Of a stretch of DNA of 64,000 bases, positions 3,246 to 50,962 are shown piece by piece. This DNA is from a virus. Its lineage: Duplodnaviria; Caudoviricetes. Each line of letters begins with the position of its first letter. Position 1 is the first letter of the stretch. Under the pieces are notes generated by a model that worked only from the letters and a program-made list of their open reading frames with translations, did no database searches and was not told the origin of the DNA. The translations under genes and the position numbers were made by a program. The stretch is taken from positions 1 through 64,000 of the IMG/VR virus record IMGVR_UViG_3300013382_000001, one strand, 5' to 3'.

Positions 3246-4295
3246 ATGCTTGGTAAGACAAATGTAAAAATTATTAAAGCGAAACCTACTTTAGGTTCAA
3301 AATGGCAAAAATCAGTTACAACGCCAACAATGTATAAATGCATCGACATTATGAATAATAGAATGACAGCTGTTGGATGGGGGGGGGCATATTATTCAGA
3401 TGATGGTGGCATAACCTTTCTACAAGCAAGTAGTACAGGGTTTGATGATGTAGAATATAATGATGGATTATTATTAAGTGTTTCTAGCTATTTGCCTGCA
3501 GGCGGTGGAATTTGGCAGTCAACGAATGGAGAATCTTTTAATTTAGTAGAGGATTCTACAATATGGGGCTATAATGATTTTATTCGAGGAGCAGGCAATC
3601 AATGGCTTATAGGATTATTTAGGGGAGGCGCTGACAGCACTTACGAAGCAACTACAAGTGAAATGAAGGATATTCCCCCAGATTTAAGTTCAACAGAACA
3701 ATCTATAGACCATTTTATCAAAGCTTTAAACACAGACCCAACAATTTGGGCTTATGATGCTGGTGATTATCTTGTTTTTTCTTCGCCGACAATATTTCAT
3801 GATACATACTTTCGCGTTAAGGCAAGAGGATCTATTACGGACGAAATATTGTCTTATGATGTTGTAAAATTTAATCATCTTTATATAGTTGGTACTTCAG
3901 AAGGGATACATTATACAGCTGATGAACTGAATTTTTCAACTTATGCCGACTTATCTTTTACACAATCTAATATCTCGAGTGGCACTATTTACAATATCCA
4001 TGCATCCGATAAAACTTGTATTGCAGTTGGAACGGATATATGGCGGTCAACCGATGGTAAAACTTGGACTGCTTTGGGTATTTCGGGTTCAACATTTAAA
4101 AAGATTTGTTCTGATGACAATGGTATTTGGGTTGCAGGTGGAAATAAGGGTGCATTGTACTATTCAAATGATGACGGTGTCACATTTACAAAAGTTGAAG
4201 ATTTGACAACGGCTAACATCTACTGGATTCATTATAATAAAAAATTTAAAACTTTTGTAATTTGTACAGCAGATGGTATTTATTATAGTAAATAA
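3246..4295 (+). CDS. Asp-box/BNR beta-propeller protein, candidate receptor-binding module with in-frame G9 tract
   Basis: Asp-box motifs YSDDGGITF, WQSTNGESF, WRSTDGKTW, YSNDDGVTF; N-terminus MLGKTN; G9 at 3379-3387. Confidence 0.7.
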   Translation: MLGKTNVKIIKAKPTLGSKWQKSVTTPTMYKCIDIMNNRMTAVGWGGAYYSDDGGITFLQASSTGFDDVEYNDGLLLSVSSYLPAGGGIWQSTNGESFNLVEDSTIWGYNDFIRGAGNQWLIGLFRGGADSTYEATTSEMKDIPPDLSSTEQSIDHFIKALNTDPTIWAYDAGDYLVFSSPTIFHDTYFRVKARGSITDEILSYDVVKFNHLYIVGTSEGIHYTADELNFSTYADLSFTQSNISSGTIYNIHASDKTCIAVGTDIWRSTDGKTWTALGISGSTFKKICSDDNGIWVAGGNKGALYYSNDDGVTFTKVEDLTTANIYWIHYNKKFKTFVICTADGIYYSK

Positions 4296-4305
4296 GGAGG
4301 ATTTT

Positions 4306-4686
4306 ATGAAGGGATTTAGTAATATTATAGAGAAAGTTAGTAGTAGTGGAGGGGGTGGCAATTCTTCCAGAAGAGATTATTGAGATAAAGAAATTTGAAG
4401 CGACGACAAATTCTACAGGTCAATTAAATATACAATTCGATAATGGAAAAGACACATCGGAAGACAATATATATACGATTGCTTTTATTGAATTAGATGG
4501 AACAGAAAATAATTTAATAGGTAATAGAGTTTTTATAGGAGCGTCGTGGGAAAGTTTGAATGTACTTCAAGTATATTTACTAAATGTTTTAATTGCGGTG
4601 CCCAATTAACCGCAAATGGCAAAATAAATATATACATTGAAGATTTGAATATTAATACAACTTATAATTATATAGGATTTTATTAA
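4306..4686 (+). pseudogene. Frameshifted small tail-tip-like gene (MKGFSN...SSSGG)
   Basis: RBS AAGGAGG + ATG 4306; stops at 4381 unless a G is lost in GGAGGGGG (4348-4355), which joins ORF 4346-4609; a second shift between 4528 and 4606 leads to ...TTYNYIGFY* at 4686. Confidence 0.6.
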
Positions 4687-4711
4687 AAACAAAATAACAA
4701 AAGGAGTTTTT

Positions 4712-5341
4712 ATGGCAGGATATTTAAGAAAATATGTTGGAACTTATGAAGTTCGAGCAGATTATGATGAAGACACAAAAGATTTTCCACGGTTACTCGA
4801 TGGAACAATTGACCCAAGTTTCGATGATTATTATATTAATTGTTCAAACGGAATAAAAATTCGTCATGCAACAGGGTCAATCCTCAGTTGTTATATTCCA
4901 AGTTTGCAAAGAGGTAATAATATTATTAAGCAATTAAATGATATTGGAAGTATTGTTATTGAGTCCGATATTCTCGATAGTGAAGTGTATTTTACTTTTC
5001 TCGCAAACGATATTGATGTAGTGGCAAAGTTGTGTAAGGTAAAGACAAAAGGAAAAAATATTCAGCCACTTTCACCTAAGACTTTACCAAAGAAGAAAAA
5101 TATTATTCCAGACAATGAAATGCAACGATATAAAAAAGTTTGTTCTAAGTTGGCTGAAAAACCACTTGATAGAGCGCAAATTATTATGAGAACTAATAAA
5201 GAATATGAAAAAAGACTTAATGATAATTATAAGCAAGAAATGAAGCGATTAATATTAGATTTTCGGAGCTATATTTGGCATATTGGTAAGTGGGATGAAT
5301 ATTTAGAGTTTTTGAGCGATTATAATAATAGTCAAGAATAG
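4712..5341 (+). CDS. Phage hypothetical protein
   Basis: 209 aa ORF, RBS AAGGAG. Confidence 0.75.
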   Translation: MAGYLRKYVGTYEVRADYDEDTKDFPRLLDGTIDPSFDDYYINCSNGIKIRHATGSILSCYIPSLQRGNNIIKQLNDIGSIVIESDILDSEVYFTFLANDIDVVAKLCKVKTKGKNIQPLSPKTLPKKKNIIPDNEMQRYKKVCSKLAEKPLDRAQIIMRTNKEYEKRLNDNYKQEMKRLILDFRSYIWHIGKWDEYLEFLSDYNNSQE

Positions 5342-5345
5342 AGAT

Positions 5346-5379
5346 AAACTGGGGTAAATCGCTCCAGTTTCGTTTTTTT
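5346..5379 (+). terminator. Intrinsic terminator
   Basis: AAACTGGGG...CTCCAGTTT hairpin followed by T-run. Confidence 0.65.
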
Positions 5380-5500
5380 ATATAGATTTTGATAAATATA
5401 TCGACCAAAGAAATAAAATCGCTTAAAATTTCTTACAATGTGGTTTAAGTAATGTTTATAATTGTAAACATAAACACCATTTTTGTTTATAATTATAGAC

Positions 5501-6481
5501 TTATTTATCATAAGCAAAATTATATAATTCTCTAAGTTGTGCATTATCGTCATAAATATTATCGTTCATTTCTATATCAATTCCAAATTCATCTTTAAGG
5601 ATTTGTTGAAGCTTGTCTAAGTCGACTTCAAAGAATTCTTTGTGAGTATTTTCTTTATTGACTCTACAATAGGCAAATCTTTTATGTAATTGAGCTTCTA
5701 ACGCAAAACAATCTTCCGAATAGATAAATGCATGGACTTTAAACTTAAAAGCGTGGCTTGCGTCTGATAATTCATCAATTCTAACTAATGGATTGACTCT
5801 GCGAGTTGTTCCAATTTTATAATATCCATATAACATATCTTCGTTGCTAATAATATAAATCCACCCTGCTTTTCTATCTCTGAGTAAGTGTCGAGTTTTT
5901 TCAATTTCTTGTTGTAACTCATTAGTTTGTTCGGTATCGCCGTTAAAAACACTTACAGATAATTGTTCTTCTAATTCTCGAAGCCTATCAAACCATTCTT
6001 TGTCGGCTTTTCGCTGCTCGGCGATTTTGCGAGCTTGCTCTTGTTTCTTCCATTTTTCTTCGGCTTGAAATAGAATGTAGTCATTTTCAAGTTCGGCTTG
6101 TTCGATTTTCAGACAGAATAATCTTTGAGTCTTAATGGTAATTTCTTGTTCATTACACACAGAAATTAGTTTGTTAGCGTAGTTTTTAATTTTTAAACGC
6201 ACACTTTCTAAGTTGTATCCATTTAACTTTTTTATTAGTTCTGAACATTCAAAATTAAAGTGTTGAATTAATATACTTGGAATATTCCCCTTTACATCAA
6301 ATAGATTTTTAGCATGAGAATAATATCTTTGCTCCTTCAAATTTTCTCGGATGGCTTTTCTAAATTCAGATTTAGTATTTAAGATATGTTTAGGTGTGTA
6401 TATTCCAACCTCTTCAAGTTTGTATTGCTCTAATTGTTTTTCGAGTTTTTTTATTTTTTCTCTTAATTCAAATTCATTCAT
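5501..6481 (-). CDS. DUF4041-like coiled-coil + T5orf172/MUG113 GIY-YIG nuclease
   Basis: AGWIYIISN...YKIGTTRR...RIDEL...HAFIYSED...LEAQLH...KEFF. Confidence 0.85.
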   Translation of the reverse strand: MNEFELREKIKKLEKQLEQYKLEEVGIYTPKHILNTKSEFRKAIRENLKEQRYYSHAKNLFDVKGNIPSILIQHFNFECSELIKKLNGYNLESVRLKIKNYANKLISVCNEQEITIKTQRLFCLKIEQAELENDYILFQAEEKWKKQEQARKIAEQRKADKEWFDRLRELEEQLSVSVFNGDTEQTNELQQEIEKTRHLLRDRKAGWIYIISNEDMLYGYYKIGTTRRVNPLVRIDELSDASHAFKFKVHAFIYSEDCFALEAQLHKRFAYCRVNKENTHKEFFEVDLDKLQQILKDEFGIDIEMNDNIYDDNAQLRELYNFAYDK

Positions 6482-6501
6482 AACATTTCCCTCCTTGTGA
6501 A

Positions 6502-6530
6502 ATTATAATAGAATTTTATTATTCTGTCAA
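6502..6530 (-). promoter_or_regulatory. Consensus sigmaA promoter for 5501-6481
   Basis: TTGACA-17 nt-TATAAT on minus strand. Confidence 0.85.
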
Positions 6531-6549
6531 GTGTAAATTTATGTAACTA

Positions 6550-6578
6550 TTGAAAATTTTTACTTTATAGGGTATAAT
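6550..6578 (+). promoter_or_regulatory. sigmaA promoter for the RNA polymerase operon
   Basis: TTGAAA-17 nt-TATAAT; shares TATAATGTTATAG with the 1229 promoter. Confidence 0.8.
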
Positions 6579-6600
6579 GTTATAGGAAGGAGGTATATAT

Positions 6601-6771
6601 GTGTATTTAGAAAATAAAGAATATTATTGGATTGAAATGAGTTATCATGTCTATAAAGCTCTATTACAAAAAGAACGATTAAAATACGAATATGAAGATG
6701 AGCAATATGAAATTTTAAATAGATGGATAGAACAAGAAGTATGCGAAAAATTTAGCTATAGGGAGGAGTGA
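6601..6771 (+). CDS. Small protein (56 aa) upstream of RNAP, not in ORF track
   Basis: RBS AAGGAGG + GTG 6601, open to TGA 6769-6771. Confidence 0.6.
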   Translation: MYLENKEYYWIEMSYHVYKALLQKERLKYEYEDEQYEILNRWIEQEVCEKFSYREE

Positions 6772-6775
6772 TTAA

Positions 6776-12700: not shown

Positions 12701-12777
12701 TGCGGGGTAGACCAGTAGTTAAGTCGCAAGCCTCATAAGCTTGAAATCGTGAGTGCAAATCTCACCCCACGCAACCA
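12701..12777 (+). tRNA. tRNA with CAT anticodon (Met/fMet-like, atypical)
   Basis: CAAGC-CTCATAA-GCTTG anticodon arm, GTGAG-TGCAAAT-CTCAC T arm, encoded CCA; bulged A in acceptor stem. Confidence 0.8.
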
Positions 12778-12859: not shown

Positions 12860-12933
12860 AGTGGTATAGTGTAATGGTAGCACAGCAGATTTTGATTCTG
12901 CTAGTTGTGGTTCAAATCCACGTACCACCGCCA
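12860..12933 (+). tRNA. tRNA-Gln(TTG)
   Basis: GCAGA-TTTTGAT-TCTGC anticodon arm, TGTGG-TTCAAAT-CCACG T arm, CCA end. Confidence 0.92.
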
Positions 12934-13116: not shown

Positions 13117-13739
13117 TACAGACAATTTCATAACGTATATCATAACTCGGTGTAGACCAAGAGCATGGTGCCGAGAGCGTGTCCATCCTACGGGTGAGAA
13201 TAGCCTATCCAGAACGATAGCTTTGGAGACGGTTAAAGACTTACATTGCGAGGTGTAAGATGCCACCTATGAATAGAATGGTTCCGGATACGTGTGCTTA
13301 TGCAGTCCTTATCAAAGACACTGTTCCTATCGGTTCCATAATAGAAGCCGAGCGTTAAAAGCGTGGGCTGAACCCAGAAACGGCGTTACTGTGGCAAGTA
13401 ACGTGAAATGAAGCAGTCTGGGAATGCCAATAAGGGATTTTGCTGATGATACTGGTAAAAGCCAGAGTATAAGATAGGGTCAAGGTACGAGTAGCTAAAG
13501 GCAATGACAGTAAGACATTCTTTAATTGAATTAAAAAAAATTCTATACAAGATGCTGAATGTGTAGTGAAAGTTATGGGTAGAAAAATTCCCATGTAGAG
13601 TTTGATGGATTTTCCATCTTGACAAGATGTTGTAGGGTAGCTCCCTATGGCACAGCCTTGTCAATCTAGTGGTCGAATATGATGATGCCTGCAGTTAGTA
13701 GGGCGAAAGTCCATGGTATGCGTTATGAAGTTGTCTGTA
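13117..13739 (+). ncRNA. Large structured RNA, ROOL-like (~620 nt)
   Basis: 27-bp terminal helix 13117-13143/13713-13739 whose only three deviations are G-U wobbles; many internal hairpins; no credible ORF; tRNA-cluster context. Confidence 0.7.
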
Positions 13740-33612: not shown

Positions 33613-34668
33613 ATGGCTGTTGACCTTTTTCAACTTGATTTAAAGGCTAAAGTTGATGTTGCTGATATAAAAAAGCAATTAAGAGAGGTTAGCAAAACCA
33701 CTGAAATTAAATTAAATGCCGATAATACACGAAGAGCAACAAAAAATATAACTGAATTTAAAGATGCTACAGGGCAAGCTTATACGGCAACTGAAAAATT
33801 CAATAAAGAAGGAAAGCTTTTAAGCACAACATTAAAGACAACTGCGAAAGAATCAGAAACATTAGGAACAAAACTTTCTAATATGGGGTCGAAAATACAA
33901 TCAATAAATGGTATATTTCAAGCCCTTAAAAATGTTGCCGTTAGTTTTGGTCAAGCATTACAACCATTATTAGAATTTGAAGATTCGTTGACGGAACTGA
34001 AGAAAGTTAGTGATTTATCGGGTACATCTTTAGATAATTATACTGATAAGCTTGCTCAAATGGGTCAAGAGGTAGGTAAATCTCGTTCTCAAATGGTAGA
34101 AGCGGCAACTGAATTTGTTAAGTCTGGGTTCAGTGAATCTGATTCTGCTGAATTGGCAAGAGTTGCAAATTTATATATGAATATTGCCGACGAAGAATTA
34201 AATGCAGGAGATGCGGCTAATTTTATTATTAGCCAAATGAAAGCATTTAATCTTGAGGCTCAAGATGCCGAACATATTATCGACAGTTTAAATAATGTGT
34301 CAAATAATACAGCTGTTAGTTCAGCCGACTTAGCAACTAACATTGGAAAAGCATCTGCTGCATTGGCAGTAGGTGGAAACACATATGAAGATGTTCTTAG
34401 TTTAATGACGGCAGGCGTTGAGATTACCCGTTCTGGCGCAAAAGTTTCAAGAGCATTGGTATCAGTACAATCTCGTTACAATCAAACTATAGACGAAACA
34501 TCTTCAACAGGTCAAAAACTTATTGAATGGTATAATAAACATAATATCGCAATTAAAGACCAAGAAGGACAACAAAGAAAGCTTTATGACACATTAAGTG
34601 ATGTATCAAAGATATGGAATGACCTTAGTAAAGATGAACAACTTTACTATCTTAATATCCAAGCGGGT
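33613..34668 (+). CDS. Tape measure protein, exon 1
   Basis: TP901-type core (LTELKKVSD, AATEFVKSG, LNNVSNN); splices ...IQAG|ANQTQNL (1497 aa total). Confidence 0.9.
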
Positions 34669-35014
34669 GAATTGCGCCCCTTCAAGGTGAATTGCTGGAA
34701 GCCTTAAAGTTTTATTTACTACAACATAAGCATGAAATAAAGCTAAGTGTGAATGTTATAAAAAACAATAAAAATATATAGGTAATCAGCAGCCAAGCTC
34801 CGAACAGGAGAAGGTTCAGAGACTATTCCAATGGCGAGGTAAATGCTCGCAATAGAAGTACGACCACAAAGCTAGTGGTGGGTGAGATTCCCTTAAATGG
34901 AAGTGCCTTGACACGAAAGTGAAGATATAGTCCGAACTTATAGGAAACTATAAGGAAGAAAGTTTTATAAATAAAACTTTCTTTGGCTAATGTAGCGAAT
35001 TAGCTTAACAATTG
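34669..35014 (+). mobile_element. ORF-less group I intron (346 nt) in tape measure gene
   Basis: P1 U34668-G34676, P10 TTGC/GCAA, P AATTGCTGGAA, Q AATCAGCAGC, R GTTCAGAGACTA, S GAAGATATAGTCC, terminal G 35014. Confidence 0.93.
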
Positions 35015-38000
35015 GCAAATCAAACACAAAATTTGAGTGCCATTCTTCAAAATTTTGACCAAGTTTTAAATGCACATGATTTAGCATTGAATGCATCGGG
35101 TTCGGCTGTGACAGAAAATGCTCGTGCAATGGAGAATCTTAACAAAAAGATTGATAACTTAAAAGCGTCTTGGTCTGAAATAGTTCTTGCATTTGTAAAT
35201 TCTGAGGCAATTGGCAACATTCTTGATAAAGTTAGTTCTGCACTTCGTGATATTGCAAATAATGAAGCAGCAATTAACACAATTGTAACTCTTGTTAAAA
35301 CTTTACTTCTTTTAGCAGGTTCTAAAGCTATAGTAGACTTTTTTAGTGGAGTAAAAGCATCAGTAGTACAGTTGCTTCCTAAGATTACAGAATTTATCAC
35401 AAAATTGACCGCAGTGAAGGCTGTTTTGATAGGTGCTGAAACAGCAACAGGTACATTAGGTACAGCATTTTTGGGTTTAGTTACACCTCTTGGGGTAGTT
35501 ATAGGTTTACTTTCTGTTCTTGCTATAGGTATTGCTGCTTATAACAAGGTTCAAAAAGCACCATCAGAACGCCTTGAAAAAGATAAAAAGACCCTTGAAG
35601 ATACTAAGGAAAAATATACTGAAATCAAGAAAGAATACGACGAACTTCTTAGCCGTCAAAAGACTCTAAACTCTCAAGGTAAAGACCTTAATGACGCAGA
35701 AAAAAAGCGTTTGGAATTACTCGAACAACAAACAAAGGAACTCGAAGAACAAGAAAAGCAACAGATGGCAAATGTTGCCGCAAGTACCGTTGGCACATTA
35801 CAATATACCCAAACAGGAACTAAGACTGTTAGAAAAGGGCAAGAATTTGCTGTTGTTGATACAGAAGAAGTTTATAAAGGTCAAAAGGCATTTGATGCAA
35901 TGGCTAATGCGATTGCCGAAGCCACGGAGCAATACGAAAAAGGCGAAATTACACTTAATGATTATAATGGTCGGACAGGCGAATTAAAAGAACAACTTGA
36001 TACAGTTTATGATTCGTATTTGGAAGTTATTCGTTCGGGTGGCGAGCTTAATGAACAAGACCAACTTAACTATGTCACACTTGTTAATTTAAAGGCGGCA
36101 TGGGTTGATGCCGAAGGTGCATCAAGCGCTTATGCTCAAGCATTAGCTAAAGTTTCGCCCAATACAAATGAAGCAATACAATTAACTGACTTATATAGTG
36201 ATTCTTTGGTGCGTGTAGGGAATCAATATTATTTCGTTACACAAGCCGCAAAAGATGCTGCAATAAAGCAGCTCTCAACAGAAATTTCTTTAACAAAGAA
36301 TGTGCTCGAACAAGTACAAACAAGGATTGCAGCTCGTGCATTAGAATATGATTCGATTGTGCAATTTAATAAAGAGGCTTTAAAACACGCTTCTCCAACT
36401 AGTGCGGGGCAATTTTACGAGAGCAATCAAGGGCAAGCAGTTCAAAAATATTATAAATTAAAACGAAACCTTGAAAAGCTGAAAAATATTAAAGTTAAAA
36501 GTAACAGTATAGATGACACAAAGTCTCCGAACAAAGATACGACAAAAGGCAGGGGTAGCTCATCGGGTGGCGGTAGTTCCTCATCTGACACTTCTCAAAA
36601 ATCCCGTGAACTTCTTGAAAAATATAAAAAAGAATTAGAGGAATATCAAGAAGCACAAGAAGATGCTTATAAAAAAGGTGAAATCTCAGCTTCTAAATAT
36701 TATTCTAATATTCAAAAGAAGGGTAAAGCCCTTTGGCAAGATCTAAAAAAGCGTGGCAAAGATTATGCAGATTCGGCTCAATCTATGTTTGACGCTTATG
36801 TGAGTGCTAATTCTAATTCAGTTAAAGAGATTTTCTCCGAGCTAGATTATCGTTACAAAGAAGGCGATCTTACAGGTAGACAATACTACAATAATCTTTG
36901 GAAATATGCTAATAAGTTCTACAAGAATGGAAAGCTTTCTTTTGATGAATATAGAGATTATGTATCTAAGGGCTATGACGCTTTATTTGACCAACTTGAA
37001 GATAATTATAATGATGGTACAATTAGTGCTGAAAAATATCAAGAACAAGTAAAAAAGGCTCAATCTGACGCAAGTGAAGCAATTCGTAACGCAACTAAAA
37101 AGGGTTTAATTGATAAATCTGTAGCCAGTGAAGTTTACAATCTTTTAGTTAAGCGTGGGGCAGAAGCGGCAAATAGTGTTGCTAAGGCACTTCATGATTC
37201 TATGGTTAAGGCTGCAAAAGAGGCTGTTGCGGAAGCTGAAGCTGAACTTGAAAAGGCTCAAAAGAGACAAACTCAAGCCGAAACCTATATTAGTGCTTTG
37301 CAATTTTGGTCTGACGAAGAGCAAGAACGAATTGACAAGGTTATTGATGGTTACAATGACGAGATTGATAAACTTCAAGAACAACTTGATTTACTTGATG
37401 AACAAAATGATGCATTAGACAAGCAAGCAGAGCGGGTAGAACTTGTGAATGCTTTAGAAAATGCGAAAAAGAAAAAAGTTCGTATATATGATGCAAAATA
37501 TGGCTGGGCATGGGGTGAAGATAAAAAGGCTGTATCTGAGGCTCAAACCGCTCTTGATGAGTTCGATAAAGAGCAAGCACGACAAAAAGAAAAAGACGCT
37601 ATCAATGCCGAAATTAAAGCTCTTGAGGAACTGATTAAGAAAAAAGAAGCTGAAAAGCAAGCATATCAAGATGTAATTGATGAACAAACAAAAGCCCTTA
37701 ATCGTTATAATATAGAAGCTCAACTTGGTGTCACTATTGAAGAAGCCATATTCCAAGATAGAATTGAAAATTTTGATAATTGGAAAAATTCGTATATTAG
37801 TGGCATACATGAAGTTATTTCTGCTATTGAGGCTGTTAATGACGCTCAAAGTAGAGTTGATTTTTCGCAGTCTGAACTTGATAGAATTGAAGCTGAAGAA
37901 GCCCCAGAGATTAAAACAGGTAAAACTTCAACCACTGGTGCAGGATATCAATATACTGACGATATGTCGAAGCAAGAAAAGCGTAACGCTGCTGTTCGTG

Positions 38001-38452
38001 CTAATATTGAAATGCGTAAAGCACAAGGGTATGAAGTTACTGAATGGTATGATTCAAATGGTGATTTGCACTATAAAGCTTCAAGTACGAAAACTTCCAA
38101 GAGTAATGTTAAATCTGGTGATGCAACCAATCTAAAGAAGAACAAACGTGCCTCTGGCGATGTTTCAATTCCTAAATCTGGAGTTTATAATGTAAACGAA
38201 CTTGGAGACGAGCTTATCGTACCACCAAAAGGTAATTTCGATTATCTTAAAAAGGGTACTGGGGTAGTTCCTGCTAACTTAACAAGAAATCTCATGGATT
38301 GGGGTAAGTTTAATCCTAAAAATTTACTTGGTAAACAAATGTCAAGCGTTACGAACGACCATTCGATTACAATTCAAAATCTTACAGTGCAATCGGATAA
38401 CGCAAAAGATTTCGTAAGACAATTACAAAATCTTGCAATTGTTAAACAATAA
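35015..38452 (+). CDS. Tape measure protein, exon 2
   Basis: Long helical/coiled-coil with TM segments, C-terminal VNELGDEL...GTGVVP. Confidence 0.9.
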   Translation, partial: ANQTQNLSAILQNFDQVLNAHDLALNASGSAVTENARAMENLNKKIDNLKASWSEIVLAFVNSEAIGNILDKVSSALRDIANNEAAINTIVTLVKTLLLLAGSKAIVDFFSGVKASVVQLLPKITEFITKLTAVKAVLIGAETATGTLGTAFLGLVTPLGVVIGLLSVLAIGIAAYNKVQKAPSERLEKDKKTLEDTKEKYTEIKKEYDELLSRQKTLNSQGKDLNDAEKKRLELLEQQTKELEEQEKQQMANVAASTVGTLQYTQTGTKTVRKGQEFAVVDTEEVYKGQKAFDAMANAIAEATEQYEKGEITLNDYNGRTGELKEQLDTVYDSYLEVIRSGGELNEQDQLNYVTLVNLKAAWVDAEGASSAYAQALAKVSPNTNEAIQLTDLYSDSLVRVGNQYYFVTQAAKDAAIKQLSTEISLTKNVLEQVQTRIAARALEYDSIVQFNKEALKHASPTSAGQFYESNQGQAVQKYYKLKRNLEKLKNIKVKSNSIDDTKSPNKDTTKGRGSSSGGGSSSSDTSQKSRELLEKYKKELEEYQEAQEDAYKKGEISASKYYSNIQKKGKALWQDLKKRGKDYADSAQSMFDAYVSANSNSVKEIFSELDYRYKEGDLTGRQYYNNLWKYANKFYKNGKLSFDEYRDYVSKGYDALFDQLEDNYNDGTISAEKYQEQVKKAQSDASEAIRNATKKGLIDKSVASEVYNLLVKRGAEAANSVAKALHDSMVKAAKEAVAEAEAELEKAQKRQTQAETYISALQFWSDEEQERIDKVIDGYNDEIDKLQEQLDLLDEQNDALDKQAERVELVNALENAKKKKVRIYDAKYGWAWGEDKKAVSEAQTALDEFDKEQARQKEKDAINAEIKALEELIKKKEAEKQAYQDVIDEQTKALNRYNIEAQLGVTIEEAIFQDRIENFDNWKNSYISGIHEVISAIEAVNDAQSRVDFSQSELDRIEAEEAPEIKTGKTSTTGAGYQYTDDMSKQEKRNAAVRANIEMRKAQGYEVTEWYDSNGDLHYKASSTKTSKSNVKSGDATNLKKNKRASGDVSIPKSGVYNVNELGDELIVPPKGNFDYLKKGTGVVPANLTRNLMDWGKFNPKNLLGKQMSSVTNDHSITIQNLTVQSDNAKDFVRQLQNLAIVKQ

Positions 38453-42783: not shown

Positions 42784-43137
42784 ATGGCATGGACAAATAT
42801 TGCTAATGGCGATAATACAGGCGATATACTTAATAAGATTAATGGTATTGGGGCATACTTAGCAAGTGCAACAGAGATAATAGAAAATTATCAAATTCCA
42901 ACTTCTGCGTGGGTTAATGATTCAACTTATACAGATTTTCCATATAAAGCCGATATCCCATTTAGTGCTTGTACTCCTAATCATATCCCATATGTTCATT
43001 TTGGAATTGACCAAGAGATAAGTGGAAGTTATATTGGTGCTACAAGCGGAGATGGAAAGGTGAGTATATGGAGTGATAAGAAAGAATCTTTTATAATTCC
43101 ATATATATTACTTTTTGAAGGGAGTGATAATATATGA
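42784..43137 (+). CDS. Tail adaptor-like protein, paralogue 1
   Basis: IPTSAWV..FPYKADI...GKVSIWS...IIPYI; paralogous to 43134 and to C-terminus of 49296. Confidence 0.65.
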   Translation: MAWTNIANGDNTGDILNKINGIGAYLASATEIIENYQIPTSAWVNDSTYTDFPYKADIPFSACTPNHIPYVHFGIDQEISGSYIGATSGDGKVSIWSDKKESFIIPYILLFEGSDNI

Positions 43138-43493
43138 GTTTAGATTGGAAAAATATTGCAGATGGTGACATTGCAAGTTCGGTTAGAACGAAATTAAATA
43201 ACTTAGGGCAATATGCAAGTGATTTAATCTCAATTATTGAAAATACAACTATTCCAACTTCAACATGGGTTAGTGATACTACACATTCACCTTTAGCTTT
43301 TAAGGCAACGATTCGTATAAGTGACATAAGTAATACCGATATTGCAGTTATTCTTTTTTCACAAGTTGACCAATCAACCTACAATTATGCAGGAGGCGAA
43401 ACAGGGAATGGAATTCTTACGATTTACGCGCTTACAAAACCAACTGAAACAATTACAATTCCGCAAATCCTAGTATTTAAGGGGGTGTCATAA
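43134..43493 (+). CDS. Tail adaptor-like protein, paralogue 2
   Basis: IPTSTWV..AFKATI...GILTIYA..KPTETITIP. Confidence 0.65.
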   Translation: MSLDWKNIADGDIASSVRTKLNNLGQYASDLISIIENTTIPTSTWVSDTTHSPLAFKATIRISDISNTDIAVILFSQVDQSTYNYAGGETGNGILTIYALTKPTETITIPQILVFKGVS

Positions 43494-44815
43494 TGGCGAA
43501 TGGTTGGACAAATGCAAATAATTTTAAACCATGGACGCAATATGAATTTACTCCAGGAACAGAGGATATTATAATTCCGAAAGGTAGTTATTTAAGTCAG
43601 ACTATTAAAGTACATGGTGATTCAAATTATGCATCGTGTAATATTGTACAAGGTGAAAGTGTGGGCGATATTCCATATGGATCTGCAAATACACCTGTGC
43701 GCAATTTTCCATGTGGAGAATTTTATTCTAAAAACTCTTCTTTCCCATGTGGATGTATTGATATACAATATAATCAGTCGTTTCTTTCAACAAAAGAGGC
43801 TACCTTTAACAACCATGTCATAAAATGCGATGAAACGGGGGTTTATTGGATATTTATCGTCAACAGCAAAACAACAATCAATGATAAAAATGCATATAGA
43901 AGTGAAGATTCTGGAGCTACTTGGACTCCTATTCGGACACAGCTGGATGATCTTACTAAGAGTGCATTAGATTATGTAATAATTAATAATATAAATTATT
44001 GGCTTGTCTCTGGTGTTGATTGGATAGATGAAGATCCAACCGATACTGTATGCTCGTATTCAACTGATTACGGCAACACATGGGAAGTAGGTCGCTATGA
44101 TAAAAATGTAAAAGCATCATATTTTATAATAGGATGTCCCGGAAAAACAGATGAATTTCCATTTATGGGCATTATTAAGACTGTCGATAATCAAATCGAT
44201 ATTATACAATCCAGAGATTGCGAACAATGGACAAAAGTACAAACATTAACTGTTTCTGATACAACACAGCCATTAGACATGATATGGGATAAAAACCAAA
44301 AATGTTATTATATTTTAATGGCAGGCAACTTATATAAGAATGGTCAACTTATGAATATATCAATACCCGAATCCGATTTGGTAACACAAATAGTTTTGGG
44401 AAGAGAAACCGATCATTTGTATGCAGTAATACCCAATGGTTTATATGATATAAATACTACAACAAATGCAATTTCTGTGTCAAAAACTTTACAAGAGTAT
44501 TTGAGTAATATTGCTACACTCGGTATAAATCATACAGAATGGATAACTAGAGTGGAATATTTTAATTCGGTATTCTTTTTAATAGGAAGTTCTGAAACGC
44601 CTTACATACTAGAATATTGGGTAGAAGGTAGTTCGATAGGGCTTGTGTCAACATCGTTTGCATCTAATTGCTGTTGGATGCACGCGTCCAGCAACAAAAT
44701 ATATACTTCATATCGGGTATTGGTGCAGTCAATTTATGAAAGCGGTCGTTATCACTATCCGAGCAAATTTCCTATGTTAACACAGTGCGACATTACCATA
44801 AAAGGAGAGATATAA
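43493..44815 (+). CDS. Candidate receptor-binding protein (fibre motif + Asp-box propeller)
   Basis: MANGWTN; TPGTEDIIIPKGSYL...VHGDSN; YRSEDSGATW, YSTDYGNTW. Confidence 0.65.
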   Translation: MANGWTNANNFKPWTQYEFTPGTEDIIIPKGSYLSQTIKVHGDSNYASCNIVQGESVGDIPYGSANTPVRNFPCGEFYSKNSSFPCGCIDIQYNQSFLSTKEATFNNHVIKCDETGVYWIFIVNSKTTINDKNAYRSEDSGATWTPIRTQLDDLTKSALDYVIINNINYWLVSGVDWIDEDPTDTVCSYSTDYGNTWEVGRYDKNVKASYFIIGCPGKTDEFPFMGIIKTVDNQIDIIQSRDCEQWTKVQTLTVSDTTQPLDMIWDKNQKCYYILMAGNLYKNGQLMNISIPESDLVTQIVLGRETDHLYAVIPNGLYDINTTTNAISVSKTLQEYLSNIATLGINHTEWITRVEYFNSVFFLIGSSETPYILEYWVEGSSIGLVSTSFASNCCWMHASSNKIYTSYRVLVQSIYESGRYHYPSKFPMLTQCDITIKGEI

Positions 44816-46219
44816 ATGATAAGTAAATGTAATCTTAATCAATGTGCAAAAAAAATTTCAGGTATATCTTTTTATCCTACAAGAGAGACAACTTATGTGC
44901 CAGCTCGTTCTTCATATTTACAAGATAATGGTATAGTCAAAAAAGTTATTAATTTAAACACATTGAGTATTATTAAGAATAAAACAATTTTTGGTGTTTC
45001 AGGGAGTGTTCAGACTTATCAGTATAAAATTGCTTCTCACTCTTCATATGTAGGTGGTGTAACTGTCGCAGATTATAGCGTAATTCACAAGGGAGGAGAT
45101 ACAGAATATAGGAGTATTACCCCTATATCTCGTCAACCCCAACAAATATCTTTTTCTACAGCACCATGTTACCCCACAAAAATGGGGTGTGTTTTTTCTG
45201 ATTATATTACAAAGAACTTACAGCTTTTAGGAGTCAAAAATAATTATATATATATGCTCAATGATAATCAATGGATTATTTGTCAAATAAGAAATACAGA
45301 AACTTATACGTGGCAAAAAAACATAAACATAATTGATACTTCTACCATTAGAGCATACTGCGATGATACAGGTCTTTATTTGTATGCTGATAATATTTTA
45401 AGGAAATACGCCGTTGATGATGGTAATGTAACATGGACAAAACAAATGGCTATAGATTATTTCAAAGTTACTCAGGATAGTATCGTTATTGCTTTATCTG
45501 CTAATAATGTGTATTATATTGATTCAAATTCGGGCAATATATTACATACCTACAAACAATCCTTTTTTTCTGTTGGTAGAGATAACATATCCATTGATTG
45601 GATTTCGGGTTATGTGGTCATGCATAATATCTCTAACAACAATCAAGCATATAGAGTCATTGTCCTTAATAAAGATGGTGAGGTTTTGTATAATTTAACA
45701 AGTGGGTTTCCATTTCTCTATGATAACATACAAACAATTGCGATTTTATCAAATCAAAAACTGGTTGTCGTTTATAAAGCTATAGATACATATGGTAATA
45801 TAACACACACGATGGGGGCATTAATAACCTTGTCAACATTAACATATACTCTTTTAGACTATGATTATACGCCTTATCAAACGATTTGTAGCGACGACAT
45901 TCAGGAAGTGGTTTCTCCAAATGGTAATGGCATATATACTGTTTTGTCTACAGGTTCGGCTACTGGTTTGGAAAATAAAATTATAGTTACGAGAATGCAA
46001 ATTACAAACGGTAGAGCAGGATTCAATCAAATATTAGAGAATAAGGTTACACAAAATCTACCTTTTATGCCTTCTTGCTGTTTTGATAACAACAAAATAT
46101 ATTATATTGCAAATGACGAAGCTAATTCACAAACAAATCGAATTATGGGGATGTGTGATAATTATGGCTGTGCAACATATTTTATAGATACTGTTTATAT
46201 ATTAGATAGATATGATTAA
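44816..46219 (+). CDS. Candidate receptor-binding protein (fibre motif + beta-propeller)
   Basis: MISKCN; PTRETTYVP..SYL...NKTIFGVSG; propeller-like repeats (DDGNVTW). Confidence 0.6.
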   Translation: MISKCNLNQCAKKISGISFYPTRETTYVPARSSYLQDNGIVKKVINLNTLSIIKNKTIFGVSGSVQTYQYKIASHSSYVGGVTVADYSVIHKGGDTEYRSITPISRQPQQISFSTAPCYPTKMGCVFSDYITKNLQLLGVKNNYIYMLNDNQWIICQIRNTETYTWQKNINIIDTSTIRAYCDDTGLYLYADNILRKYAVDDGNVTWTKQMAIDYFKVTQDSIVIALSANNVYYIDSNSGNILHTYKQSFFSVGRDNISIDWISGYVVMHNISNNNQAYRVIVLNKDGEVLYNLTSGFPFLYDNIQTIAILSNQKLVVVYKAIDTYGNITHTMGALITLSTLTYTLLDYDYTPYQTICSDDIQEVVSPNGNGIYTVLSTGSATGLENKIIVTRMQITNGRAGFNQILENKVTQNLPFMPSCCFDNNKIYYIANDEANSQTNRIMGMCDNYGCATYFIDTVYILDRYD

Positions 46220-46238: not shown

Positions 46239-46598
46239 ATGATTGGATTCTAGTTTGTTGTCTACGGCTCTGCCACTAAACAGTGAAACTGTAGAACTAC
46301 CTGCGTATGACGCGGATATCAAACCGAATACCTTTGTGTCGATTGCAGATACGCAAGCAGATTCTTGGATTACAGAGCTTCAAGACAACACAATAGTAGA
46401 AGACAGTAGCTCTAATGATGCAACGCAAGCACAATTTTTCAGTATAGACACAACGCATTTTGCATTGATGTATTTCACAAACAGTTATACATTGTAAAAA
46501 TTGCAAAGGTCAATACAGACGGAACATGTGAAATTATACACACCTTCTCTGACAACAGTAGTTATAATTACACAAACAAAATAGATGAAGTAGAATAG
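46239..46598 (+). pseudogene. Decayed receptor-binding gene remnant
   Basis: RBS + ATG ATT GGA TTC TAG; shifted frames continue (46243-46497, then to TAG 46598). Confidence 0.55.
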
Positions 46599-46607
46599 GA
46601 GGAAAAA

Positions 46608-47407: not shown

Positions 47408-49273
47408 ATGAAATTTTTAACATCTATTAACTTATTACAGAACGAATTACAAAATGCAGTTATTCAACCTTTAGCTGTTGCACCAGAAAACCCAGTTGAG
47501 GGTCAAATTTATTATAATTCTACAAAGAAAACTCTCGAACAGTATGATGGAGCTAATTGGAATGTAGTAGGTAAAGAATATACATTACCGACAGCAAGTG
47601 CTGACGTTCTTGGTGGTATCAAAGTTGGTGCAGGATTACAGATTTCTGACCAAGGCACTCTTTCCACAACTGGTGGCGGTGTTGCTGATTCCGTTGAATG
47701 GACAGGCGTACTTGATACACCGACCGATTTAGCAGGATATGGAATTACTGACGCTAAGATTGAAAATGGTGTAATCACATTAGGTAAAACCACAATTACA
47801 CCTGTAACAACTGTAAATGGTAAGACTGGCAATACAGTTACACTTACAGCTGCGGATGTTAAGGCACTTGCTGATGATACTACTTATGTGGAATCTGTTG
47901 ACGGACAAAGTGGAGTAGTTACGACAAATGCTGTTAAGTATACAACTCAAACTTTAACTGATGAACAGAAGCAACAGGCAAGAACAAATATCGGAGCAGG
48001 AACTTCGAGCTTTGATGGCGATTATAATAGCTTATCTAACACGCCAACTATCGATACAGCTTTAAGTGCAACTTCTACGAACGCTGTTGAAAACAAAGCT
48101 GTGACAGCTGAACTTAACAAGAAATATGATGAAACTAATCAACCACCATATCCTGTAACAAGTGTAGCTGGTAAGACTGGTGCAGTTACGCTTGCTAAAG
48201 GCGATGTTGGTTTAGGTAATGTTGCAAATGTTCTCCAATATTCTGCTGATAACGAACCGCCTTATCCTGTAACAAGTGTTGATGGTGAAACGGGTGCGGT
48301 TGTACTGAGCGATGTTAAGTATACAGAACAGACTTTAAGTGAAGCTCAGAAGACTCAAGCAAGAACTAATATTGGTGCAGGCACAAGCTCCTTCTCTGGC
48401 AGTTATAATGACTTAGATGATAAGCCAACTGTTGATACTGCTATGAGTGCAGACTCCACAAATGCAGTTCAGAACAAGGTTATCAAAGCTTATGTTGATG
48501 GTATTGTAGCAGCAAGCCAAGGTATTGTTTATAAGGGAACAATTAATAAGACGGATGATATTCCTACAACTTATAATGTTGGCGACCTCTATATGATTGC
48601 AACCGCAGGTACTTATGTAGGACAAGTATGTGAAGTTGGAGATTTGATGATTGCTGTTGTAGAAAGGAAAGGTACAGGTAACCAAAATTCTGACTGGGAT
48701 GTTATTCAGACGAATATTGATGGTGCAATCACTGAAATTACTGGTGACGCTCCGATTTCTGTAACTGGAACAGGTGCAAGTAGAGAAATTGCTCTTGCTG
48801 ATTCTGGTGTAACAACTGGTGGATATGGTGATACTGCTAATCAAACTCCTGCATTTGGTGCAACATTCAAAGTTCCAAGCTTTACAGTTGACCAATATGG
48901 TAGATTGACAGCAGCAGGTGAACACACAGTAACCATTCCGGCAACTGTTGCAACAGATACGGTAGCAGGTATTATGAGTGCCGCAGACCACAAGAAATTA
49001 ACTAATGGTCTTGCTGATATTGGAACATTAAAAACTGATGTAGAGACACTTAAGGGCAAAGATGTAACTAAATATGTTGTTACTATTCCAACAGGACAAA
49101 CAACTGCAACTGCTACGATTGCGGAAAGTGTTGATGTTCTTTCTGTGATCGCTACAAATAATACAACAGGTGAAGAAGTAATGATTGATAGTTCTGTAAG
49201 TGGCACAACATTTACAGCTTCTATTGCTAAATCTGTTGGTTATGCTGTAAAGGTAGTTGTTACTGTATTATAA
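47408..49273 (+). CDS. Tail fibre protein with internal repeats
   Basis: YTLPTAS..LGGIKVG; two QTL..QK.QARTNIGAGTSSF.G.YN.L repeats; PPYPVTSV repeats. Confidence 0.8.
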   Translation: MKFLTSINLLQNELQNAVIQPLAVAPENPVEGQIYYNSTKKTLEQYDGANWNVVGKEYTLPTASADVLGGIKVGAGLQISDQGTLSTTGGGVADSVEWTGVLDTPTDLAGYGITDAKIENGVITLGKTTITPVTTVNGKTGNTVTLTAADVKALADDTTYVESVDGQSGVVTTNAVKYTTQTLTDEQKQQARTNIGAGTSSFDGDYNSLSNTPTIDTALSATSTNAVENKAVTAELNKKYDETNQPPYPVTSVAGKTGAVTLAKGDVGLGNVANVLQYSADNEPPYPVTSVDGETGAVVLSDVKYTEQTLSEAQKTQARTNIGAGTSSFSGSYNDLDDKPTVDTAMSADSTNAVQNKVIKAYVDGIVAASQGIVYKGTINKTDDIPTTYNVGDLYMIATAGTYVGQVCEVGDLMIAVVERKGTGNQNSDWDVIQTNIDGAITEITGDAPISVTGTGASREIALADSGVTTGGYGDTANQTPAFGATFKVPSFTVDQYGRLTAAGEHTVTIPATVATDTVAGIMSAADHKKLTNGLADIGTLKTDVETLKGKDVTKYVVTIPTGQTTATATIAESVDVLSVIATNNTTGEEVMIDSSVSGTTFTASIAKSVGYAVKVVVTVL

Positions 49274-49295
49274 TATGACTTAAAAAGGAGGGTCT

Positions 49296-50534
49296 TTGAC
49301 CATGAAAAATTTAGGGGCAATTTCAGACCCGAAAGACATAATTACAAAAGAATATTTAGATGAGGGTATTGGCAAAACTGTCAATACCCTTGAAGATAAT
49401 GTACAAATGGCTGAAAGTGATATTGAGTCACTTCAGACTGATGTTGGCACATTACAAACAGATAATACTGCAACAAAGGCAGCTGTTAAAACCTTACAAG
49501 ATACATATGTGCCGAATACCAGGAAGGTGAATGGTAAGGCGCTTGATGTCGATATAGAATTAACTGCTTTCGATGTAGGTACTCAACCCGCTGAATGGGA
49601 GTGGAAGGGCGACCGTGCTTATGGCTTGGTTATCGGCACAGGAAGCGGACACGACGTTGAAATAGGTCAAATGACAGTGGAAACGACCGAAGATAGTTAT
49701 GTTGCTTATTATTATGGTCGTTATGTGGATAATTCTTATATTAAGACATCTTTTGATTCTGCATCAAGTTATCGAGCTGTTGAAGTATCAATCGAGCCGA
49801 CTACTGATATGGGGATTGTTAATAAAAAGTTTTTAGAAACTCAACTTGCGAATATATCTATTCCAACAAAAACCTCACAGCTCACTAATGATAGTGGGTT
49901 CCTTACTTCTGCCCCAGTCACTAGTGTAAACAGTAAGACAGGGGCTGTGAAACTTACGGCTTCTGATGTGGGGGCATTATCGTTAAATGACGGTGGTTCA
50001 GTTGGTGGTGGCGTTACCTTCAATGGTAGCGTTATTATAAATGGTGGTGTTAGTCTTAATGGTGTTTTAAAGACAGATATAGATTTGGCAAATGCTCATA
50101 TGTTAAAAAATGGAACAATAGAAAATGTTACCTTTAAAGAATGTACACTAAGTAGCGATTTTAATACAGGCGGTTATTCCATTGCAGGTCTTCCAACTCC
50201 TACATCCAGTTCTGAAGCTACCAATAAAGAATATGTTGATGGTCTTGCTATTCACACAGTTTTATCCACATCCGTTCCGACTACAGCATGGGTAACTAAC
50301 ACTAACTCTCAAGCCACAACTCAAGAAAAAACGGATTTTCCATTTATGGCAACCATATCCATTTCGGGTATGACTACGAATTTTGGTGTTGATGTGTTAT
50401 TGACTTATGATGACCAAATAAGTGGTAATTTCTGTTCATGTGTATATTCTACATCTGGTGGCGTTATTATTGAGGCTAAGGAAAAACCAACTACTACAAT
50501 CACAATTCCTGTGATTCGTTATTGGAAATCTTGA
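49296..50534 (+). CDS. Tail fibre protein ending in adaptor-like domain
   Basis: IPTKTSQLTNDSGF, VTSVNSKTGAV, ATNKEYVD; C-terminal VPTTAWV..FPFMATI...KPTTTITIP. Confidence 0.75.
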   Translation: MTMKNLGAISDPKDIITKEYLDEGIGKTVNTLEDNVQMAESDIESLQTDVGTLQTDNTATKAAVKTLQDTYVPNTRKVNGKALDVDIELTAFDVGTQPAEWEWKGDRAYGLVIGTGSGHDVEIGQMTVETTEDSYVAYYYGRYVDNSYIKTSFDSASSYRAVEVSIEPTTDMGIVNKKFLETQLANISIPTKTSQLTNDSGFLTSAPVTSVNSKTGAVKLTASDVGALSLNDGGSVGGGVTFNGSVIINGGVSLNGVLKTDIDLANAHMLKNGTIENVTFKECTLSSDFNTGGYSIAGLPTPTSSSEATNKEYVDGLAIHTVLSTSVPTTAWVTNTNSQATTQEKTDFPFMATISISGMTTNFGVDVLLTYDDQISGNFCSCVYSTSGGVIIEAKEKPTTTITIPVIRYWKS

Positions 50535-50565
50535 TAAAAACAACAAAAAAAAGGAGTACATGATT

Positions 50566-50962
50566 ATGATAGGACGGGCTAATATATTAAATAATGTTTC
50601 GGGGGGGGGGGGGGGGGGATCATTGTTGATATCAAAAAGGATATAGACCTTCCAATCAAAGTTGATTTTATACCAACATTTGTTGGTATAAATGATAAAA
50701 CATATAGTGGGTAACTCTTTCGAGATTTATATTAGGTTGTAGTGATGTATACATTATAAATACTGATTTACCTCAAAGTATTTTGTCGGAAGATGTTCAT
50801 ATATCTTATAAATTTACTGACGCGTTAGATTATAGAACTAAAATGATTTGGGTGTATTCAACCACATCTCAAATGTTGAATAGGTATATCGATAACGGAT
50901 CTATATATTCAATATCGCCTATGTCTGATATAGATTTCTTACTTATATGTCAAACGAATTAA
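50566..50962 (+). pseudogene. G18-interrupted small tail-tip gene (phase-variable, OFF)
   Basis: RBS AAGGAG, MIGRANILNNVS then G18 (50601-50618); stops at 50644; other frames give IIVDIKKDIDLPIKVDFIPTFVGI and an open frame 50708-50962. Confidence 0.65.

What the first reader, a model, noticed from the sequence alone, without database searches (positions are those of the whole stretch)
3246..50962. Candidate plug-in receptor-binding system: six unrelated genes share one short N-terminal peptide, matched by three adaptor-like domains
Seen: N-termini MLGKTN (3246), MKGFSN (4306), MANGWTN (43493), MISKCN (44816), MIGF[S]S (46239, broken) and MIGRAN (50566) fit a loose M-x-G-x-[TSAC]-N pattern, while their bodies differ (Asp-box propellers, other propellers, ~130-aa small domains). 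Two of them (43493, 50566) directly follow a gene ending in a shared ~85-aa domain (PTxxWV...F/YxAxI...GxxxIxA..KPT.TITIP), of which there are three copies; 44816 and 46239 continue the first cluster. Three are intact, three are broken, and three carry G-tracts near the 5' end. Inference: the peptide is a docking strand that plugs interchangeable receptor-binding modules into tail adaptors, giving heterogeneous virions and switchable host range without invertases or a DGR. I do not know a description of this arrangement.
Basis: partly seen in the sequence, partly recalled or inferred. Interest (0 to 1): 0.85.

Follow-up and report, generated by a model that had tools for sequence, protein, structure and literature searches.

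The report
Plug-and-socket tail tips with poly-G switches
A 98-kb gut phage, like many other phages of Clostridia, ends its tail fibres in a small conserved domain and starts the next gene with a matching 7-residue peptide. This most likely clips interchangeable host-binding modules onto the fibre, and in this phage lineage several of those modules are switched on and off by slippery runs of G.

Summary
Within the complete 98,184-bp phage genome, six ribosome-site-preceded starts fit M-x-G-x-[TSAC]-N (one with an extra residue), against 0.36 expected (p 2e-6). Three copies of one ~85-aa beta-sandwich domain exist. The pairing is general. In 104 unrelated Clostridia phage and prophage loci the domain is always the C-terminal end of a protein. 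In 95 of 101 readable cases the next gene starts M-(A)-I-G-R/K-T-N-A plus a glycine run, with unrelated bodies (LRR plus lectin-like, Ig-like, gp38-type glycine-rich, propeller-like). One natural co-swap fits a matched plug and socket: a relative has a different fibre end and a different leader on a homologous body. No binding was shown; the complex prediction gave no answer.

Of the six window genes, four carry a solid leader (3246, 4306, 43493, 50566). The leader of 44816 is a glycine-less variant, and 46239 is a stub.

G tracts are real switches. Orthologues in other samples differ in tract length and reading state. However, the three broken window genes each carry at least two lesions and look decayed, not merely off.

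The principle is known (KP32 conserved peptide, BppU-BppL). This family is not in Pfam, NCBIfam or PDB. Verdict: new variant of a known kind. The scan has noted analogous tags, of other families, in other phages.

The parts
42784..43137 (+). Stand-alone adaptor 1 (117 aa): conserved N-terminal ~30 aa plus the adaptor beta-sandwich
   Evidence: tblastn E 5.6e-20 to adaptor 2; family HMM E 1e-36; present in all six kin phages
43134..43493 (+). Stand-alone adaptor 2 (119 aa). Its stop overlaps the start of the next gene
   Evidence: AF2 model pLDDT 95: helix 14-29 plus an 8-strand sandwich 31-119. 1964 representative clusters in the family. BFVD neighbours are the ends of proteins annotated as tail fibre or receptor-binding protein
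43493..44815 (+). Plug-in 1 (440 aa). The leader MANGWTNA matches the MA-x-G-x-T-N-A form. The first ~90 aa are nearly invariant and the body is variable and propeller-like
   Evidence: Homologues share the N-terminal ~90 aa at 60-73% identity while the bodies diverge. BNR_2 and Sortilin hits are below threshold
44816..46219 (+). Second propeller-like protein (467 aa) with a glycine-less leader variant (MISKCN)
   Evidence: Kin phages start this gene M-x-x-x-[TS]-N-I-N. PQQ_2 hit below threshold. The N-terminal ~45 aa resemble those of 43493 (read directly)
46239..46600 (+). Decayed small plug-in gene in the variable slot before the conserved 137-aa gene. It reads MIGF, then a stop, and has at least two frame breaks
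   Evidence: Sequence and frames. The same slot is empty in L004 and holds intact leader genes of 425 and 462 aa in L005 and L007
49296..50534 (+). Fibre 2 (412 aa): coiled-coil N-terminus, adaptor domain at the C-terminus (about 50250-50531)
   Evidence: tblastn E 7e-7; HMM E 2.8e-26, residues 321-415 of the open frame; tail-fibre PHROGs
50566..50962 (+). Plug-in gene after fibre 2: leader MIGRAN, G18 tract at 50601-50618 encoding the glycine linker. It is out of frame, with a second break at GGG 50709-50711
   Evidence: Contigs from runs X2 and X3 replace 49967-50971 with other sequence, so this is a swapped cassette
3246..4295 (+). Intact plug-in (349 aa): canonical leader MLGKTN, Asp-box/propeller-like body, in-frame G9 tract at 3379-3387. 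It lies 40 kb from the tail module
   Evidence: Orthologues carry G8 (in frame), G7 and G5 (out of frame) at the same tract. PSII_BNR E 1.2e-5, below threshold
4306..4686 (+). Decayed small plug-in: leader MKGFSN, serine/glycine linker with G5, and frame breaks at about 4350 and about 4545
   Evidence: The orthologue in L112 has one break only, with a different offset. In L113 and L114 only a stub of leader plus gene end remains

Best explanation
**Proposed mechanism.** The ~85-aa beta-sandwich is a socket. It ends fibre 2 and forms the body of the two mini-fibres (117 and 119 aa). The N-terminal peptide M-(A)-x-G-x-[TS]-N-x, usually followed by a glycine-rich linker, is the plug. It attaches the product of the next gene, or of a distant gene, non-covalently to the fibre end, probably as an added strand or a short clasp. 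The variable bodies are the distal host-binding modules: propeller-like here, and LRR plus lectin-like, Ig-like or gp38-type glycine-rich domains elsewhere.

In this ~98-kb phage lineage the linker, or a nearby Gly-Gly site, is encoded as a run of G. Replication slippage therefore turns single plug-ins on and off. Copies that stay off decay: 4306, 46239 and 50566 in this window.

**Shown:**
- the pairing, its conservation and its position;
- the diversity of the bodies;
- the polymorphism of the G tracts.

**Inferred:**
- physical docking;
- presence in the virion;
- an effect on host range.
For: 1. The adaptor family is large and strictly C-terminal. It has 1964 representative clusters, and all 105 domains found in 104 loci lie within 12 aa of the protein end.
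2. 95 of 101 readable loci have a leader start within -45 to +40 nt of the adaptor gene's stop, mostly as an ATGA overlap. In 24 diverse Clostridia genomes the motif heads 15 of 21 downstream genes against 3 of 348 other genes (p 2e-19). Two of the four genome loci without an adjacent leader gene (L105, L110) carry one within the 4-kb flank.
3. The leader is conserved at the protein level in genomes whose adjacent glycine linkers use different codons, so it is not a DNA element.
4. The bodies are unrelated and look like binding modules.
5. Co-swap: fibre 2 of L115 keeps its N-terminal 94 aa but ends in a different domain, which the adaptor HMM does not detect. The next protein is homologous from residue ~10 onward to L005 12618 (E 8e-48) but carries a different leader.
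6. Some family members have the adaptor fused in one chain to further distal domains, and tandem adaptors also occur.
7. A BFVD structural neighbour combines a BppU N-terminal domain with this fold at its C-terminus. BppU's C-terminal domain is the known holder of receptor-binding trimers (PMC4742702).
8. G-tract states:
   - gp3246 family: G9 and G8 in frame; G7 and G5 out of frame.
   - The plug-in after fibre 2: intact in L116; out of frame at G9 in L004 and at G10 in L117.
   - Of nine tracts of G7 or longer, six are out of frame, which is the share expected for a random phase.
Against: - No binding or virion data exist for any member.
- The genome has three sockets but up to eight leader genes, and 3246, 4306 and 88111 lie far from any socket.
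- The leaders of 44816 and 46239 are degenerate.
- The domain could itself be the receptor-binding head. Its weak fold neighbours are C-terminal domains of tailspikes, H-type lectins and proteins annotated as receptor-binding protein.
- The co-swap and the one protein with both leader and adaptor (P0057, a single 1-kb contig) are single cases.
- The loci surveyed are phylogenetically redundant (34 distinct leaders).
- The G-tract differences are between samples and come from assemblies. They are not measured within one population.
Confidence: 0.58

Rival explanations
1. The leader targets the proteins into the virion, but to another site (baseplate, the mini-fibres' N-terminal region or another plug-in), not to the beta-sandwich. 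The sandwich itself is the receptor-binding head of the fibre.
For: The genome has more leaders than sockets, and some leader genes are distant from any socket. The fold neighbours of the domain are fibre and tailspike ends, lectins and proteins annotated as receptor-binding protein. 44816-type genes follow gp43493, not an adaptor.
Against: The 94% adjacency with strictly C-terminal adaptors across lineages and the co-swap in L115 are hard to explain if the two do not interact.
Confidence: 0.15
2. The downstream proteins are fibre-tip assembly factors or transient caps (Tfa-like or chaperone-cap-like). They are needed to fold the C-terminal domain and are not lasting host-binding modules.
For: Their position directly after the fibre gene matches that of Tfa, gp38 and the chaperone caps of Alteromonas phages (PMC10579305). 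The N-terminal part is conserved and the rest is variable.
Against: The bodies range from 60 to 480 aa and carry LRR_5, Laminin_G_3, Ig-like, Gly_rich_2 and propeller-like domains. No window protein matched a tail-fibre assembly family in Pfam or PHROGs. Adaptors occur without any such gene in 6 of 101 loci. Leader genes also occur far from fibres.
Confidence: 0.1
3. The leader with its ribosome-binding site is mainly a recombination handle. It would be a shared gene start that lets cassettes be exchanged or deleted by homologous recombination, with no docking role.
For: Stubs made of leader plus gene end remain after loss of the body (L113, L114, L005 18225). An identical leader occurs on two genes of L005. 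A swapped cassette spans 49967-50971.
Against: About 20 nt is short for homologous recombination. The peptide, not the DNA, is conserved between distant lineages. This explanation also does not account for the strict pairing with one protein domain.
Confidence: 0.08
4. The similarity of the six N-termini is chance in an AT-rich genome, and the frame breaks are assembly errors.
For: The motif is short and loose. Homopolymers are error-prone in sequencing.
Against: Six observed against 0.36 expected. The same leader sits at the same position in about 100 other loci. Breaks at 4545, 46250 and 46497 are not in homopolymers. All long genes of the record are open.
Confidence: 0.02

Closest known systems
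Anchor-branch receptor-binding systems of Klebsiella podophages KP32/K11 (conserved N-terminal peptide of RBP2 docks on the T4gp10-like domain of RBP1; PMC13579863)
   Same: A short conserved N-terminal peptide on an otherwise variable second receptor-binding protein, matched to a conserved domain of the preceding protein. The modules are exchanged horizontally.
   Different: The socket here is a C-terminal ~85-aa beta-sandwich with no sequence match to T4gp10-like domains. The plug is about 7 residues plus a glycine linker, not about 35 aa. The bodies are binding modules rather than depolymerase spikes, and the hosts are Clostridia.
BppU-BppL(-BppA) tripod of lactococcal phages TP901-1/Tuc2009 (PMC4742702)
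   Same: In a Gram-positive phage, the C-terminal ~100 residues of an adaptor protein hold separately encoded receptor-binding proteins. In Tuc2009 a BppU hairpin completes a beta-sheet of the accessory carbohydrate-binding protein. A BFVD neighbour of the domain studied here carries a BppU N-terminal domain.
   Different: No sequence or clear fold match to BppU was found here. The plug-ins are mostly single, diverse modules rather than one trimeric RBP.
T2/S16-type gp37 fibre with separately encoded gp38 tip adhesin, and Tfa-type fibre assembly proteins
   Same: The gene after the fibre encodes a protein that binds the fibre tip through its N-terminal part. Some leader proteins elsewhere carry the Gly_rich_2 domain. 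From memory, this is the gp38-type polyglycine sandwich.
   Different: There is no homology in the docking parts. No window protein has that domain.
Hypermutable poly-G tracts in Campylobacter phages (Sorensen et al. 2021, Cell Rep 35:109214, cited in PMC10877375) and phage contingency loci (bioRxiv 10.1101/2025.10.21.683753)
   Same: Long G runs near the 5' ends of genes for putative host-binding proteins, and of a methyltransferase, with length variants that shift the frame.
   Different: Here the tract often doubles as the codons of a poly-glycine linker behind a docking peptide. The host group is different. No phenotype has been measured.
Shared N-terminal tags on swappable virion proteins noted earlier in this scan (Rak2-like jumbo coliphage, Bellamy-like cyanophage; e1-249163, e1-5802480)
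   Same: The same logic: one short tag on unrelated bodies.
   Different: The tag and partner families are unrelated. Those notes were not checked here.

Membership tests
KP32/K11-type anchor-branch RBP system | T4gp10-like branching domain in the first RBP | tested here: inconclusive
   No Pfam or NCBIfam hit for any adaptor. One Atlas structural neighbour cluster carries PF21939 Gp10_C (TM 0.76 by query), which is a lead only.
KP32/K11-type anchor-branch RBP system | Conserved ~35-aa N-terminal peptide on the second RBP | tested here: not met
   The conserved part is about 7 residues plus a glycine run. Only the gp43493 family has a longer conserved N-module, about 90 aa.
BppU-BppL tripod (TP901-1/Tuc2009) | BppU N-terminal domain on the adaptor protein | tested here: not met
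   No such Pfam or PHROG hit for 42784, 43134 or 49296. It was seen only in a BFVD neighbour.
BppU-BppL tripod (TP901-1/Tuc2009) | C-terminal domain of the adaptor binds the N-terminus of the RBP | not testable with these tools
   Needs a structure or a binding assay.
Tail fibre assembly proteins / gp38 adhesins | Tfa (Caudo_TAP) or gp38-type glycine-rich domain in the downstream protein | tested here: not met
   None in the window's leader proteins. Gly_rich_2 occurs in leader proteins of L105 and L094 only.
Phage contingency loci (poly-G) | Homopolymer of about 7 or more within a coding region, far above chance | tested here: met
   G9, G18 and G14 in a genome with 17% G. By my own arithmetic, the expected number of G9-or-longer runs is about 0.02.
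Phage contingency loci (poly-G) | Tract length varies and shifts the frame in natural populations | tested here: met
   Seen between samples: G9/G8 in frame and G7/G5 out of frame in gp3246 orthologues; ON, G9 off and G10 off for the plug-in after fibre 2. Variation within one population was not measured (one search did not cover the tract).
BNR/Asp-box (sialidase-like) beta-propellers | Pfam BNR-type match above the gathering score | tested here: not met
   gp3246 scored PSII_BNR 25.2 bits against a cutoff of 27. gp43493 scored BNR_2 18 bits against 31.4. The fold was not modelled.

The most novel reading that the evidence does not exclude
Clostridia phages and prophages share a general, undescribed assembly code. 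A 7-residue N-terminal strand plus glycine linker docks any binding module onto a conserved beta-sandwich at the fibre end. Leader type and fibre-end type would be matched in several specificities. In the ~98-kb lineage the linker is written as a hypermutable G tract, so each burst would yield virions with a stochastic set of tips.
Probability: 0.4. Interest if true: 0.8.

Novelty: new variant of a known kind. Interest (0 to 1): 0.68.

Why it matters
Host range of gut Clostridia phages is almost unstudied, because few are cultured. A simple sequence rule (fibre-end domain plus M-I-G-R-T-N leader) would help in several ways.
- It would flag the true distal host-binding proteins in thousands of uncultured phage and prophage genomes.
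- It would explain why such proteins can sit far from the tail genes.
- It would give a minimal tag for attaching chosen binding modules to these phages in laboratory host-range studies.
- The poly-G linker adds a case of phase variation in phage tip genes outside Campylobacter and the T-even phages.

Tried and rejected
- **Complex prediction.** Three copies of gp43134 with residues 1-95 of gp43493 gave 'no answer' (score 0.02). This is no evidence either way.
- **Self-docking trick.** An AF2 model of P0057 (leader plus adaptor in one chain) left residues 1-12 at pLDDT below 50, so it gave no information.
- **Kin in IMG/VR.** None were found with the three-copy alignment or with the conserved 137-aa neighbour. 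The 60-member alignment was too diverse to scan with.
- **Isolated phages.** tblastn against isolated phage records found no match for the window's adaptor. The canonical adaptor matched only one metagenomic virus, held under two accessions. No cultured example or proteome is therefore at hand.
- **PDB.** There was no sequence match and no clear fold match (best Z 4.7).
- **Curated families.** Pfam on all 60 family members gave no shared family, and NCBIfam gave none.
- **Literature.** A search by motif found nothing relevant.
- **Read laying.** No contig bridges the G18 tract, so its length heterogeneity is untested.
- **Promoter scan around 3246.** Matches were at chance level.
- **Programmed frameshift at the G tract.** Rejected, because the leader-to-body offset differs between the window's 4306 and its L112 orthologue.
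- **Conserved DNA or RNA element instead of a peptide.** Rejected, because the codons of the adjacent linker differ between lineages while the residues are kept.
Full report
**Setting.** The window is the first 64 kb of a complete 98,184-bp virus record with terminal repeats. It has about 33% G+C and is distantly related to ~100-kb Enterocloster phages. The tail module runs from a tape-measure gene split by a group I intron through baseplate-like genes to 42769. Then come two small paralogues (42784, 43134), two propeller-like genes (43493, 44816), a broken small gene (46239), two conserved small genes, two fibres (47408, 49296), another broken small gene (50566) and a 298-aa protein.

**Observation.** The six N-termini are as quoted. 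Genome-wide, six ribosome-site-preceded ATGs fit M-x-G-x-[TSAC]-N or the form one residue longer. Expectation is 0.36 (p 2e-6). Two of the six (88111 and 84923, minus strand) lie beyond the window.

The ~85-aa domain occurs exactly three times. The bodies show no mutual similarity. 4306, 46239 and 50566 each carry at least two frame breaks.

Homopolymers of G are far above chance: G9 in 3246, G18 in 50566, G14 in the 5' part of a cytosine methyltransferase gene, and G7 in 88111.

**The domain.** A profile of the three copies finds 1964 representative clusters, 521 of them at E of 1e-10 or better. The domain lies at the very C-terminus of proteins of 107-1380 aa, or in stand-alone proteins of about 115-140 aa. 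A few proteins have the domain in tandem or followed by further domains.

The AF2 model is confident (pLDDT 95): one helix and an eight-strand sandwich. No solved structure matches clearly. Weak neighbours are C-terminal domains of tailspikes and fibres, and H-type lectins.

Predicted viral structures with the same fold are the ends of proteins annotated as tail fibre or receptor-binding protein, and one carries a BppU N-terminal domain. Pfam, NCBIfam and PHROGs give no named family; the only hit is phrog_23587, of unknown function.

**The pairing is general.**
- In 80 IMG/VR loci and 24 loci from Clostridia genomes, 105 domains were found. The genomes include Oscillospiraceae, Lachnospiraceae, Christensenellales and two prophages of cultured Lawsonibacter faecis. 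All 105 domains are C-terminal.
- 95 of 101 loci with readable downstream DNA have a gene starting M-(A)-I-G-R/K/M-T/V-N-A/T followed by glycines. The start lies within a few bases of the stop, mostly as an ATGA overlap.
- In the 24 genome loci the motif heads 15 of 21 downstream genes, against 3 of 348 others (p 2e-19).
- The loci are redundant (34 distinct leaders), so these are not 95 independent events. The genome set does span families.
- Of the four genome loci without an adjacent leader gene, the adaptor gene is followed by a holin-like or lysin-like gene in three (L096, L105, L107), and two (L105, L110) have a leader gene within 4 kb.
- Bodies of leader proteins include LRR_5 plus Laminin_G_3, carboxypeptidase-regulatory-like Ig folds, Gly_rich_2 and DUF6273.

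**The window's lineage.** Six kin phages (L004, L005, L007, L115-L117) keep the same gene order. gp43493 homologues share an almost invariant first ~90 residues and then diverge. Its start, MANGWTNA, aligns with the MA-I-G-K-T-N-A form found elsewhere.

The slot between the second propeller gene and the conserved 137-aa gene varies:
- empty in L004;
- 425 and 462 aa in L005 and L007, both with the leader M-K-G-L-T-N-I;
- a decayed ~120-aa gene in the window.

Genes after fibre 2 also start with the leader (L005 17737, L004 16300, L117 16416).

L115 is the most telling case. Its fibre 2 keeps the N-terminal 94 residues but ends in a domain that the adaptor HMM does not detect. The next protein is homologous from residue ~10 onward to the L005 slot protein (E 8e-48) yet carries another leader. 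A third pair recurs in three phages: a C-terminus ending in A-E-A-V-T-S followed by M-G-N-M-I-N on an LRR plus lectin-like protein.

**G tracts.**
- Other lineages encode the glycine linker with mixed codons (G runs of 2-5). In this lineage long G runs sit in or near it.
- Orthologues of gp3246 carry G9 (window, in frame), G8 (L114, in frame), G7 (L113, out of frame) and G5 plus a 1-nt deletion (L112, out of frame).
- The plug-in after fibre 2 is intact in L116, out of frame at G9 in L004 and at G10 in L117.
- Six of nine tracts of G7 or longer are out of frame, as a random phase would give.
- The leader-to-body offsets differ between orthologues, which argues against programmed frameshifting.
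- Bodies can be lost altogether, leaving stubs of leader plus gene end.
- Contigs of two runs replace 49967-50971, the distal half of fibre 2 plus its plug-in, with other sequence.

**Interpretation.** The best reading is a plug-and-socket attachment of interchangeable distal binding modules, with slippage-driven on/off switching in this lineage and decay of copies that stay off. I put this at 0.58. The pairing, the position, the body diversity and the tract polymorphism are shown. Docking, virion presence and an effect on host range are inferred.

The main rivals are:
- targeting to another virion site, with the sandwich acting as the receptor-binding head;
- a chaperone or cap role for the downstream proteins;
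- a recombination-handle role for the leader.

**Known analogues.** These are the conserved peptide and T4gp10-like domain of KP32/K11 (PMC13579863), the BppU-BppL/BppA tripod (PMC4742702), tip adhesins of the gp38 type, and poly-G contingency loci in phages (bioRxiv 10.1101/2025.10.21.683753; Sorensen 2021 as cited in PMC10877375). The principle is therefore known. This domain-peptide family, its spread in Clostridia phages and the use of the glycine linker as the slippery tract appear undescribed in the libraries and papers searched.

Noticed in passing
window 13122-13731 (+): Full-length ROOL RNA (Rfam RF03087, 271.7 bits) beside two tRNA genes (12702-12773, 12860-12930).
   Followed up: partly
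window 34641-34954 (+): A group I intron (RF00028, 65.4 bits) splits the tape-measure gene into 33613-34707 and 35012-38452. The gene is uninterrupted in kin L005, L115 and L117.
   Followed up: partly
window 61832-63139 (-), tract 63001-63014: A G14 tract lies about 125 nt into a C5 cytosine methyltransferase gene whose FxGxG motif sits at the C-terminus (a permuted order). The upstream 45 codons look like a target-recognition piece. This may be a further slippage switch.
   Followed up: no
window 49967-50971: In contigs of two public runs this stretch (distal half of fibre 2 plus the plug-in gene) is replaced by unrelated sequence with sharp borders. This is a naturally swapped cassette.
   Followed up: partly
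L007 16880-17953: An IS605-type OrfB/TnpB gene sits inside fibre 1 of a kin phage and splits it into 341-aa and 159-aa parts.
   Followed up: no
L116 12735-12850: A kin phage has a deletion that joins the start of the conserved 137-aa gene to the last codons of fibre 2. Both fibres are removed, yet an intact leader gene follows.
   Followed up: no
genome 84875-84923 (-), outside the window: A leader-like 16-codon stub (M-R-G-L-T-N) is followed by an unusually G+C-rich ~120-nt stretch of unknown nature.
   Followed up: no
window 44790-44815 and kin: gp43493 homologues mostly end in a conserved strand ([LV]-x-[IV]-[RK]-G). They are always followed by the second propeller gene with its own M-x-x-x-[TS]-N-I-N start. 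This may be a second plug-and-socket pair.
   Followed up: no
BK063680.1 19270-19560; L110: The adaptor domain also turns up in a virus assigned to Methanomassiliicoccales and in a contig binned with a Methanomicrobiales MAG. This could be real spread to archaeal viruses or a binning artefact.
   Followed up: no
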